Below are positions 7,191 to 7,647 of a stretch of DNA of 61,319 nt, one piece after another. The notes under the pieces are model-generated. The model was not told the DNA's origin and did no database searches. It saw nothing but the letters and a program-made list of their open reading frames with translations. The stretch comes from Candidatus Adlerbacteria bacterium. Lineage in GTDB: Bacteria > Patescibacteriota > Minisyncoccia > Phycocordibacterales > SBAW01. How positions within the stretch are numbered: the first letter of the stretch is position 1; each line of letters begins with the position of its first letter. Location of the stretch: the NCBI GenBank assembly GCA_028286785.1, contig JAQBQX010000007.1:1-61319 (forward strand). The letters run 5' to 3'. Made by a program: the position numbers and the translations under genes.

Positions 7191-7278
7191 GTAAGGGCAC
7201 ACTTACGTCTGGGATAAGGGCACACTTATGTCTGGGTTTTTCCAGACACTGCCAGACGCTGAGGGTACACTTATATCC
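7191..7278 (+). repeat. box element copy A (two tandem 23-bp boxes, CCAGAC tail, degenerate third box)
   Basis: TAAGGGCACACTTACGTCTGGGA (7191-7213), TAAGGGCACACTTATGTCTGGGT (7214-7236), CCAGACACTGCCAGACGC (7241-7258), AGGGTACACTTATATCCT (7261-7278). Confidence 0.85.
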
Positions 7279-7299
7279 TATTCTATAGAAGGAGGAAGC

Positions 7300-7554
7300 A
7301 TGTCCGACCTTGAACCGATTGCACTTTCTGACTCGTTGATCGATAAAATCAATGAAGTTGTCAGCCCCTTTGGCTGCTGTGCCATTGACCTAGGCGAAAT
7401 GGCTGTACGAGAAACGGAGCATTCGATCGTACGCGGCCCATCGGCTGTGGTCGACTTTCCGCGACGGTGCTCATCGCGCACTAAGAGAAAAATCCGGCAG
7501 CTCATTTTGCAGCAAGTCCCCGGCATCACCAAAGTGCTGCAACATAGAAATTAA
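7300..7554 (+). CDS. hypothetical small protein (84 aa)
   Basis: Strong SD GAAGGAGGAAGC immediately upstream of ATG 7300. The upstream part of the ORF-track ORF (from 7228) lies inside the repeat element and was discarded. Terminator follows. Confidence 0.6.
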   Translation: MSDLEPIALSDSLIDKINEVVSPFGCCAIDLGEMAVRETEHSIVRGPSAVVDFPRRCSSRTKRKIRQLILQQVPGITKVLQHRN

Positions 7555-7555
7555 A

Positions 7556-7578
7556 ACGGGCCCAGTGCCCGTTTTTTC
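7556..7578 (+). terminator. rho-independent terminator
   Basis: ACGGGC / CCAGT / GCCCGT followed by TTTTTT. Confidence 0.7.
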
Positions 7579-7579
7579 T

Positions 7580-7647
7580 TAAGGGAACACTTACGTCCAG
7601 GATAAGGGCACACTTATGTCTGGGCTTTCCAGACGCTGCTGGACGCT
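7580..7647 (+). repeat. box element copy B
   Basis: TAAGGGAACACTTACGTCCAGGA (7580-7602), TAAGGGCACACTTATGTCTGGGC (7603-7625), CCAGACGCTGCTGGACGC (7629-7646). Direct repeat of copy A, about 390 bp away. Confidence 0.85.

What the first reader, a model, noticed from the sequence alone, without database searches (positions are those of the whole stretch)
7191..7647. Dispersed 23-bp box family (TAAGGGMACACTTAYRTCYRGGA) in tandem arrays upstream of small orphan genes
Seen: at least 10 boxes occur in this window. Plus orientation: 7191-7213 and 7214-7236 (tandem, 23-bp phase), a degenerate copy at 7261-7278, 7580-7602 and 7603-7625, and a half box at 33637-33652. Minus orientation: 30862-30884, 30829-30849, 30806-30828, 20084-20106, 33164-33186, and a half box at 21189-21203. 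Tandem pairs are followed by a CCAGACGCTGCCAGACGC tail at 7241-7258, 7629-7646 and 30784-30801. The flank GCATCTGGCATATCCCAGATGTAAGTGTTCCCTTAAAAA is 39/39 identical between 20072-20110 and 30850-30888. In three cases the element sits directly upstream, in the same relative orientation, of a promoter or SD of a small orphan gene: 7300..7554; 30299..30709; and 32492..33076, where it abuts the -35 TTGACA. Copy B precedes the candidate ncRNA at 7663. Copies A and B flank the 84-aa ORF as about 390-bp direct repeats. Inference: these may be a transcription-factor operator set defining a small regulon of accessory genes, or a REP/MITE-like mobile intergenic element, or both. Repeated intergenic elements are also classic IS110-family targets, so a link to the 3699-6489 system is worth testing. 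My by-eye comparison of the 34 loop strands with the box found only 5-7-nt matches, which is not significant.
Basis: seen in the sequence. Interest (0 to 1): 0.6.

Follow-up and report, generated by a model that had tools for sequence, protein, structure and literature searches.

The report
Terminator-trailing hairpin repeat family
The "boxes" are a real repeat family found only in this one ultra-small (Candidatus Adlerbacteria-like) genome: a fixed 13-letter head followed by a small hairpin, copied about 50 times and almost always placed directly behind a gene's terminator, so it behaves like a selfish REP-type repeat and not like a gene switch.

Summary
The 23-bp "box" is only part of the unit. 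The full unit is about 35 nt: (T)AAGGGMACACTTA followed by a 7-bp hairpin. The hairpin arms covary (98% of cells paired, compensatory changes at 5 of 7 pairs). The "CCAGACGC tails" are the 3' arms of nested hairpins.

The 581-kb assembly holds about 53 units in about 36 clusters, which is most of its interspersed repeat DNA. The family was not found in 40 relatives, about 185,000 species genomes, JGI metagenomes, viral contigs or 80 related ftsH loci. Two orthologous sites in relatives are empty.

The consistent context is polar. The head abuts a hairpin plus T-run (an intrinsic terminator) in 15 of 34 clusters, against 4 of 600 random intergenic positions. On the 3' side the count is 0 of 29. 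Spacing and orientation relative to downstream genes vary, and flanking genes include core genes (ndk, pyrF, Mur ligase) as well as orphans. This argues against an operator or regulon.

The neighbouring "IS110 system" is a TIGR-Tas locus, and none of its guides matches a box.

Best reading: a lineage-specific, REP-like, non-autonomous repeat that inserts behind hairpins. No transposase was found.

The parts
7164..7191 (+). Intrinsic terminator of ndk (hairpin plus T-run) that array A abuts.
   Evidence: Sequence. Upstream hairpin -13.5 kcal/mol with a T-rich tail.
7192..7259 (+). Array A, a nested pair. The outer unit has its head and 5' arm at 7192-7214. The inner unit lies at 7215-7249 inside the outer loop. 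The outer 3' arm CCAGACGC is at 7252-7259.
   Evidence: The covariance model hits 7215-7249 at 55.5 bits.
7261..7278 (+). Degenerate third head (GAGGGTACACTTATATCC) without a hairpin.
   Evidence: Weak covariance-model hit.
7300..7554 (+). 84-aa orphan ORF lying between arrays A and B. It is part of a roughly 530-bp stretch that relatives lack at this site.
   Evidence: No Pfam hit. ndk and the conserved ncRNA are adjacent in G022, G073 and G075.
7556..7579 (+). Terminator of the 84-aa ORF, abutted by array B.
7580..7646 (+). Array B, a nested pair. The outer stem is CGTCCAG/CTGGACG and the inner stem is GTCTGG/CCAGAC. It folds as a three-way junction at -24.4 kcal/mol (z = -3.6).
18037..18070 (-). 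Degenerate unit (TAAGGAATACACTTA plus the hairpin GTCTTG/CAAGAC).
   Evidence: Covariance-model hit at 19.8 bits, E = 8e-4. Sequence.
20072..20106 (-). Solo 35-nt unit. Its head abuts the T-run of the terminator of the OTCase-family gene (20107-20137). Its last base overlaps the ftsH stop codon.
   Evidence: 58.1 bits. Relatives have only the terminator at this position.
21160..21203 (-). Head (21190-21203) whose own hairpin, TGCCGCTTTATAAGCGGC plus a T-run, looks like the terminator of gene 21233-22531.
   Evidence: It is also present in an independent Logan contig.
30784..30884 (-). Three-unit array: a solo unit at 30850-30884, an outer unit with head and 5' arm at 30829-30851, an inner unit at 30794-30828, and the outer 3' arm at 30784-30793. 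It follows the terminator at 30885-30912.
33152..33186 (-). Solo unit. A TTGACA -35 hexamer lies 6 nt beyond its 3' end.
   Evidence: 56.4 bits.
33637..33679 (+). Head followed by a GC-rich hairpin and T-run, which is the terminator of ORF 33264-33611.
16974..16995 (-). Box-like hairpin (GTCGAG-GATTTG-CTCGAC) without the head, inside a 43-bp repeat next to ssrA. A second copy lies at 16026-16047. Membership in the family is doubtful.
   Evidence: Covariance-model hits to model positions 14-35 only, E = 6e-5 and 0.31. Sequences.

Best explanation
The boxes are a lineage-specific, REP-like, non-autonomous structured repeat. The unit is about 35 nt: a sequence-conserved single-stranded head, (T)AAGGGMACACTTA, followed directly by a 7-bp hairpin. 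The hairpin's sequence may change as long as it still pairs. Copies have multiplied recently within this one lineage. New copies land in a fixed polarity immediately 3' of an existing hairpin. Most often this is after the last T of an intrinsic terminator's T-run. It can also be right after another unit's hairpin (serial arrays) or inside another unit's T-rich loop (nested arrays, which produce the 23-bp phase and the double 'tail'). What is shown: the unit anatomy, covariation, copy number, subfamilies, lineage restriction, empty orthologous sites and the polar adjacency to terminators. What is inferred: the copies spread by a hairpin- or single-strand-directed copy-and-insert process, driven by an enzyme that has not been identified. 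The closest mechanistic analogy is Y1/HUH (IS200/IS605, RAYT-type) recognition of a hairpin plus a short flanking guide sequence. As with REP elements, some copies have probably been taken over as terminators (21190, 33637). Near-identical arrays may also act as recombination substrates that shuffle small genes, such as the 84-aa ORF between arrays A and B.
For: Unit and structure: 38 units carry a hairpin starting 0-2 nt after the head. On 24 distinct 35-nt units, 98.2% of cells pair, 5 of 7 pairs show changes on both sides, and 0 of 500 shuffles reach the covariation score; slid registers give 21-46% pairing. Folding z-scores are -3.6 to -5.0. Copying rather than convergence: subfamilies share stem plus loop (CGTCTGG/ATATG, CGTCCAG/ATTTG, CATCTGG, GTCTTG, GCCGY), and up to four copies are identical over 35 nt. 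The family accounts for 190 of 262 intra-genome repeat pairs. Four MAG contigs and one Logan contig end inside a box. Lineage restriction: 41 matches in G000 against one 2-mismatch hit in 40 relatives. There was one chance hit in about 185,000 species genomes and one in JGI metagenomes. Viral contigs gave only coding-sequence chance hits. The covariance model found nothing in 1.26 Mb of related loci. Empty orthologous sites: ndk abuts the conserved ncRNA in relatives, and the ftsH-terminator junction has no box in 13 relatives. Polar target: 15 of 34 clusters abut a strong hairpin plus T-run, against 4 of 600 random intergenic positions (p = 9e-18). For a hairpin alone the counts are 19 of 34 against 36 of 600. 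The 3' side gives 1 of 29 and 0 of 29. Arrays are mosaics of different subfamilies in different orders, and the inner unit always sits at the same point of the outer loop. No known RNA family matches.
Against: No mobilising enzyme was found. There is no Y1/RAYT and no TnpB, and only one tyrosine recombinase fragment. The assembly is only 67.6% complete, so absence is not shown. I saw no target-site duplication. Preservation of perfect stems in diverged subfamilies could equally reflect host selection for an RNA or DNA structure. Relatives are about 75% identical, so the 'empty sites' show lineage-specific gain, not precise insertion. Gene calls used for context statistics were crude (greedy longest ORFs).
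Confidence: 0.6

Rival explanations
1. The element is a host-selected cis-element at gene 3' ends. The head plus hairpin, placed just behind terminators, would act on read-through transcripts or on the DNA. It could serve as a fail-safe second hairpin or insulator that keeps read-through out of the next gene, as a 3'-exonuclease block, or as the binding site of a termination or processing factor. Its spread would then be secondary.
For: There is strict polarity with the upstream terminator. Stems are kept by compensatory changes even in diverged subfamilies. G-U wobbles occur mostly on the head strand: 10 cells against 3 A-C cells. In two copies the element's own hairpin appears to be the gene's terminator. 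REPs in E. coli are reported as local 3'UTR regulators (bioRxiv 10.64898/2026.03.23.713779, abstract seen).
Against: An element placed after an efficient terminator is mostly not transcribed. None of the 40 relatives has it, so it cannot be a conserved host function. Subfamily structure and identical copies point to copying. Nine of the ten wobbles sit at one position, so they are probably inherited rather than independent. There are no expression data.
Confidence: 0.2
2. The boxes are recombination or junction sites for small gene cassettes, similar to Neisseria NIME/dRS3 or integron attC sites. Orphan genes would be inserted, duplicated or swapped between boxes by a site-specific or homologous mechanism.
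For: The 84-aa ORF is bracketed by two 68-nt arrays in direct orientation and is absent from the same site in relatives. ORF 33264-33611 and ORF C2:7652-8137 are each flanked by inverted heads. Six of the ten upstream genes tested have no Pfam hit. Box-like hairpins lie in the 43-bp direct repeats that bracket an orphan gene next to ssrA.
Against: Many boxes flank only core genes: ndk, the OTCase-family gene, pyrF, a Mur ligase and rplK. In the orphan cluster at 30.3-33.7 kb most gene junctions have no box. Only one tyrosine recombinase was detected, and it is not near a box. The orphan genes next to boxes are not homologous to each other. Relative G076 has a different insertion at the ndk site without boxes.
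Confidence: 0.08
3. The boxes are a transcription-factor operator set that defines a regulon of small accessory genes.
For: The head is an imperfect palindrome (TAAGGGA/ACACTTA). Tandem boxes sit about two helical turns apart. Three window copies lie upstream of small orphan genes.
Against: There is no fixed spacing to -10/-35 elements or to start codons. The orientation to the downstream gene is 19:13, which is not significant. Flanking genes are functionally mixed. The motif is absent from all relatives. The precise anchor is the upstream terminator rather than the downstream promoter. The hairpin arms covary, which points to structure and not to base-specific duplex reading.
Confidence: 0.05
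4. The boxes are the natural targets of the neighbouring RNA-guided system at 3699-6489, whether read as IS110/bridge RNA or as TIGR-Tas.
For: IS110-family elements are known to target REP sequences (IS621, cited in PMC3184786). The locus lies 700 bp from array A.
Against: The locus has the stem-loop TIGR layout: box C (CGA), a 9-nt spacer, then box D (TG), twice per module (rules from PMC12045711 and bioRxiv 10.64898/2026.09.09.750476). I scanned 16 modules in all four dual-spacer geometries with gaps of 0-2. This gave 49 genome hits at <=3 mismatches, and none lies in a box. The best hit (1 mismatch) is in the ECF sigma gene at 28072. Single spacers match boxes no better than shuffled spacers: mean 6.35 against 6.30 of 9.
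Confidence: 0.02

Closest known systems
REP / BIME elements and REPINs with their RAYT transposases (E. coli, Pseudomonas; PMC3337134) and SMAG REPs of Stenotrophomonas (PMC3184786)
   Same: Both are short (about 35 nt), extragenic and present in many copies. Both have a GC-rich imperfect palindrome with a conserved unpaired head at one end. Both are lineage-specific, cluster at gene 3' ends next to runs of T/A, form higher-order clusters, and are occasionally used as terminators.
   Different: No RAYT or other Y1 gene was detected (the assembly is 67.6% complete). Units are never in inverted doublets. Multi-unit clusters are direct, either serial or nested. The head is 11-14 nt rather than a tetranucleotide. 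The polarity and base-precise abutment to the terminator T-run are stricter than I know for REPs (own knowledge).
Pneumococcal BOX and SPRITE repeats (Martin 1992; Croucher 2011, as summarised in PMC3184786)
   Same: BOX elements are modular arrays with a variable number of internal modules, whose 5' and 3' modules pair into a long stem. SPRITE resembles a Rho-independent terminator and is biased to gene 3' ends. Both are non-autonomous, and their means of mobilisation is unclear or borrowed.
   Different: There is no sequence relationship. BOX modules are 45-60 nt. The present family sits behind terminators rather than mimicking them, and it occurs in a roughly 0.8-Mb CPR genome with no IS detected.
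IS200/IS605-type end hairpins and their orphan derivatives (for example Borrelia stem-loops at gene 3' ends with compensatory changes, PMC3184786)
   Same: Both combine a hairpin with an adjacent short conserved single-stranded sequence as the recognisable unit. Both act strand-specifically. Orphan copies at gene 3' ends keep their structure through compensatory changes.
   Different: No TnpA or TnpB was found. There is no left-end/right-end pair and no element body.
Group IIC introns and other elements that home to intrinsic terminators (own knowledge)
   Same: Insertion occurs in a fixed orientation just downstream of a terminator stem-loop.
   Different: The box unit is 35 nt, with no ribozyme and no reverse transcriptase. 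Only the target preference is similar.

Membership tests
REP / REPIN-RAYT | Short extragenic imperfect palindrome present in many copies. | tested here: met
   About 53 units, none inside a confident gene. The hairpin is supported by covariation.
REP / REPIN-RAYT | Mobile unit is an inverted REP doublet (REPIN). | tested here: not met
   All multi-unit clusters are same-strand, either serial or nested. The closest opposite-strand pairs are 450-590 bp apart.
REP / REPIN-RAYT | A cognate Y1/HUH RAYT gene flanked by the repeats. | tested here: not met
   PF01797 gave no match in G000, while the controls were positive in 6 of 14 genomes. The assembly is only 67.6% complete.
REP / REPIN-RAYT | Excision or insertion polymorphism within populations. 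| not testable with these tools
No strain at >=90% protein identity is in the collection.
MITE | Terminal inverted repeats and target-site duplication; length 100-400 bp. | tested here: not met
   The unit is head plus hairpin, about 35 nt. Its ends are TAAGGG... and ...GAYGC, with no inverted termini and no duplicated flank in the junctions listed.
Transcription-factor operator / regulon | Fixed position and orientation relative to promoters of a coherent gene set, conserved in relatives. | tested here: not met
   Spacing is variable. Orientation is 19:13. Gene functions are mixed. The motif is absent from 40 relatives.
Target of the TIGR-Tas (or IS110 bridge-RNA) locus at 3699-6489 | Complementarity of paired guide segments to adjacent halves of the site. 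| tested here: not met
   0 of 49 best genome-wide dual-spacer hits lie in boxes. Single-spacer matches equal the shuffled control.
Any curated RNA family (Rfam 15) | Covariance-model match. | tested here: not met
   At the gathering threshold, only tmRNA and two tRNAs were found in the window. Region 7150-7870 at E <= 1 gave only two terminator-like chance hits.
Modular BOX-type repeat | Variable number of internal modules between 5' and 3' modules that pair. | tested here: inconclusive
   Nested arrays fold as an outer stem enclosing an inner unit, and unit order varies between loci. This is a resemblance of architecture only. No homology test against pneumococcal BOX was run.

The most novel reading that the evidence does not exclude
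The family could be a previously undescribed kind of terminator-homing mini-element in CPR bacteria. It would be a 35-nt head-plus-hairpin module copied with base precision onto the 3' side of hairpins (terminator T-runs or loops of sister copies). The machinery would be neither RAYT, TnpA nor a known IS transposase. Alternatively, it could be the recognition signal of an unknown host factor acting at transcript 3' ends in genomes with leaderless, tightly packed genes.
Probability: 0.15. Interest if true: 0.7.

Novelty: new variant of a known kind. Interest (0 to 1): 0.42.

Why it matters
Small structured repeats have hardly been described in CPR/Patescibacteria, whose genomes of about 0.8 Mb are thought to carry very little selfish DNA. 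My literature search for such repeats in these bacteria found nothing relevant. Here one family makes up most of the interspersed repeats. It appeared within a single species-level lineage and shows an unusually clean insertion rule: head-first, directly behind a hairpin or T-run. That makes it a tractable case for asking how REP-like elements choose sites and spread without an obvious transposase. There are also practical points. The boxes break assemblies, since four MAG contigs and a Logan contig end inside them. They can mislead annotation of promoters and operators. They mark spots where small orphan genes have been inserted. The work also removes a tempting but wrong link to the neighbouring RNA-guided TIGR-Tas system.

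Tried and rejected
- **TIGR/IS110 guide matching.** Dual-spacer and single-spacer scans gave no signal.
- **Similarity to tigRNA processing sites.** The CUU processing motif at the stem base of tigRNAs and the class III linker GCACTTATT share only ACTTAT with the box. I treat this as chance.
- **ECF-sigma promoter reading.** The box contains GGAAC and CGTC, but they are only 5 nt apart. In arrays the spacing is 28 nt. The genome's own ECF promoter is GGAAA-N17-CGTCA. Rejected.
- **Mini-hairpin in the head (TAAG/CTTA).** It is predicted by folding, but serial units replace TAA with CTG, CAG or CGG without compensation. Not supported.
- **DNA-uptake sequence.** The density is about 1 per 11 kb, copies are intergenic only, and each has a variable hairpin attached. 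This is unlike DUS/USS (own knowledge). Rejected.
- **Boxes as ends of a larger unassembled element.** Self-BLAST shows no repeat longer than about 120 nt attached to boxes.
- **Searches for the family elsewhere.** Relatives, species genomes, metagenomes, viral contigs and 80 ftsH loci gave only chance hits.
- **Strain-level variants.** Exact protein look-up returned only 100%-identical Logan contigs from one run. The 90% protein clusters have a single member.
- **Orphan genes next to boxes.** They do not form a family: only one unrelated ABC-type pair matched in an all-against-all comparison.
- **Orientation relative to neighbouring genes.** Not significant with my crude gene calls.
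Full report
**1. Observation**

The pattern TAAGGGMACACTTAYRTCYRGGA matches nine times in the window at up to 3 mismatches, against 0.00 expected. TRF reports the 23-bp tandem at 7192-7236. The half boxes, the degenerate copy, the 39/39 identity and the 388-bp spacing of arrays A and B are all present.

The window is contig C11 of a 581-kb, 39-contig assembly with 51% GC and 67.6% completeness. Earlier notes and the names of related records place it in Candidatus Adlerbacteria / Paceibacteria. Genome-wide there are 31 full boxes at <=2 mismatches and none for the reversed control pattern.

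**2. What the unit really is**

I printed every core hit with its flanks. This shows that the 23-bp box is not the unit. The unit is a head, (T)AAGGGMACACTTA, followed immediately by a hairpin, typically YRTCYRG-G(N4-5)-CYRGAYR.

The "CCAGACGCTGCCAGACGC tail" is a pair of 3' arms. In the tandem form, a second unit sits inside the loop of the first. The order is therefore head1-arm1, head2-arm2, loop, arm2', arm1'. Array B shows this clearly: the outer stem is CGTCCAG/CTGGACG and the inner stem is GTCTGG/CCAGAC. It folds as a three-way junction at -24.4 kcal/mol, z = -3.6.

On 24 distinct 35-nt units the 7-bp stem has these properties:
- 98.2% of cells are paired.
- 5 of 7 pairs show changes on both sides (GC to AU, UA to CG, and so on).
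- 0 of 500 shuffles reach the covariation score.
- Slid registers give only 21-46% pairing.

Diverged subfamilies keep the head but carry quite different perfect stems: GCCGYTTTATAARCGGC, GTCTTG..CAAGAC, GTCGCA..TGCGAC and GCCGGCAG..CTGCCGGC.

The head itself is conserved as sequence. Its predicted TAAG/CTTA mini-stem is not maintained in serial units. A variant head with a 9-10-nt insertion (AAGGGAGCGTAGCGAACACTTA) occurs four times. No Rfam family matches.

**3. Copy number and dynamics**

My curation gives about 53 units in about 36 clusters, or roughly one per 11 kb. The family accounts for 190 of 262 repeat pairs in a self-BLAST of the genome, and nothing longer than about 120 nt is attached to it.

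Up to four copies are identical over 35 nt. Stems and loops are co-inherited in subfamilies, which indicates copying rather than convergence.

Arrays are mosaics. Different subfamilies appear in different orders at C11:30784-30884, C32:14689-14793, C13:1-93, C39:15606-15727 and C36:25274-25362. The inner unit is always the GGGCAC/TTAT/T-rich-loop type and is always placed after GGA in the outer loop.

Four MAG contigs end inside a box. An independent Logan contig, 100% identical to the window, also breaks in the loop of the unit at 20072-20106.

**4. Context**

The constant feature is what lies 5' of the head.
- In 15 of 34 clusters, a hairpin of <= -12 kcal/mol with a T-run ends within a few bases of the head. 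Usually the last T is the T of TAAGGG. The same is true of 4 of 600 random intergenic positions (Fisher p = 9e-18).
- For a hairpin alone the counts are 19 of 34 against 36 of 600.
- The same test on the 3' side gives 1 of 29 and 0 of 29. The arrangement is therefore strictly polar.
- In serial arrays the next unit starts 2-3 nt after the previous unit's hairpin, and in nested arrays it starts inside the T-rich loop. "Immediately 3' of a hairpin arm or T-rich single strand" covers all three arrangements.

By contrast, the distance from the element's 3' end to the next -10/-35 element or start codon ranges from 1 to more than 25 nt and beyond. The downstream gene is co-oriented in 19 cases and opposite in 13, which is not significant with my crude gene calls.

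Flanking genes include ndk, an OTCase-family gene, ftsH, pyrF, a DnaA-like gene, a Mur ligase, ftsE, a methyltransferase, an MFS transporter and rplK, alongside proteins with no Pfam hit. The orphans next to boxes are unrelated to each other.

In two window copies (21190, 33637) the element's own hairpin carries a T-run and appears to be the terminator of the preceding gene.

**5. Distribution**

The 21-nt pattern at <=2 mismatches occurs 41 times in G000. It occurs once (a 2-mismatch hit) in 24 same-genus and 16 same-order genomes. Exact scans gave the following:
- One chance hit in about 185,000 species genomes, in a Lachnoclostridium record.
- One chance hit in JGI metagenomes, in AT-rich coding sequence.
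- Four unrelated coding sequences in viral contigs, none with a 3' arm.

A covariance model of the unit finds only window copies. Nothing better than E = 0.1 appears in 1.26 Mb from 89 related loci.

Two orthologous sites could be compared.
- In G022, G073 and G075, ndk is followed within about 3-25 nt by a conserved, promoter-preceded ncRNA. In G000 about 530 bp (array A, the 84-aa ORF, array B) lies between them. G076 has a different, box-free insertion at the same site.
- Downstream of ftsH, 13 relatives have only the terminator. G000 has a 35-nt unit wedged between the ftsH stop codon and the A-run of that terminator.

The relatives are only about 75% identical. These comparisons therefore show lineage-specific gain, not the exact insertion event. 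No closer strain exists in public data: the 90%-identity protein clusters for SecY, Map, TasR and the OTCase-family protein have one member each.

**6. The neighbouring system**

Earlier notes identify 3699-6489 as a stem-loop TIGR array around a nuclease-dead TasR gene. I confirmed the module grammar: an outer stem, then CGA-N9-TG, an inner hairpin, CGA-N9-TG, and the outer stem again. The rules come from PMC12045711 and bioRxiv 10.64898/2026.09.09.750476.

I scanned the genome with 16 modules in all four dual-spacer geometries and gaps of 0-2. This gave 49 sites at <=3 of 18 mismatches, and none lies in a box. Single spacers match boxes no better than shuffled spacers. The link is not supported.

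**7. Interpretation**

Several lines of evidence fit a selfish, non-autonomous, REP-like repeat that is copied to sites just 3' of hairpins:
- many near-identical copies organised in subfamilies;
- restriction to one lineage;
- empty orthologous sites;
- mosaic and nested arrays;
- a base-precise polar target;
- indifference to the identity of neighbouring genes.

The requirement for a sequence-specific head plus a sequence-free hairpin is what Y1/HUH enzymes (IS200/IS605 TnpA, RAYT) read on single-stranded DNA. This comparison rests on my own knowledge and PMC3337134.

No such enzyme was found, and a third of the genome is missing. The mechanism is therefore inferred and not shown. The family fails the REPIN/RAYT membership tests.

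A host role at transcript 3' ends, as an insulator or stabiliser, remains possible and is not exclusive, as with REPs. A role as cassette junctions is suggested by the 84-aa ORF but does not generalise. The operator reading and the RNA-guide-target reading are disfavoured by direct tests.

**8. Limits**

I could not do read-level polymorphism tests, wider genus scans or whole-genome comparison with relatives.
- Gene calls for the context statistics were my own greedy ORF calls.
- There are no expression data.

Noticed in passing
window 7660-7835 (+): A structured ncRNA of about 170 nt lies between ndk and the beta-CASP/RNase J-like gene. It has an extended -10 promoter (TGTGATATAGT) and its own terminator. 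Its 5' part is 84-89% identical in many same-genus genomes, and it usually starts within a few bases of the ndk stop codon. It has no Rfam match even at E <= 1.
   Followed up: partly
L007 (G076) 1036-1501, the ndk-ncRNA junction in a relative: A same-genus relative has a different 465-bp insertion at the same junction, with two small ORFs plus a terminator and no boxes. This junction therefore seems to be a recurrent landing place for small accessory genes.
   Followed up: no
window 16023-16064 and 16971-17013 (-), next to ssrA (17029-17411): The 43-bp direct repeats bracketing an orphan ORF each contain a hairpin with the same loop and closing bases as box hairpins (GTCGAG-GATTTG-CTCGAC and GCCGAG-GATATG-CTTGGC). 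They lack the GGGMACACTTA head. The second copy has a G-T wobble on the minus strand only.
   Followed up: partly
window 27961-27996 and 28072-28089: The ECF sigma-factor gene (27994-28533) has a typical ECF-type promoter, GGAAA-N17-CGTCA, a few bases before its ATG. TIGR module 3971 matches 28072-28089 inside the gene at 17 of 18 positions.
   Followed up: partly
G000 contig ends: C2:8173-8207, C4:9148-9161, C13:1-61, C17:11945-11979; Logan contig L110, 3' end: Assemblies break inside box units. Some of these contig ends may be neighbours in the real genome.
   Followed up: no
G000 C32:13900-14676: A 258-aa DnaA-like protein has the DnaA N-terminal domain and the C-terminal DnaA-box-binding HTH domain, but no AAA+ module. 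It lies directly upstream of a three-unit box array.
   Followed up: no
L026, L043, L062, L091 (Kaiserbacteria, Taylorbacteria and Paceibacteria loci near ftsH): Other CPR genomes carry their own local repeats that share a motif of the type TTTTCTGCTGAAAA...GACGAGGCGGGGTCGCGG across different candidate phyla. This may be another, more widespread structured element.
   Followed up: no
G000 C2:2729 and window about 17000-17030 (-): A promoter-like module of about 35 nt, AAAAATAAGAAG..CGACTATATTTTTG, is shared between the region just downstream of ssrA and a site on contig C2.
   Followed up: no
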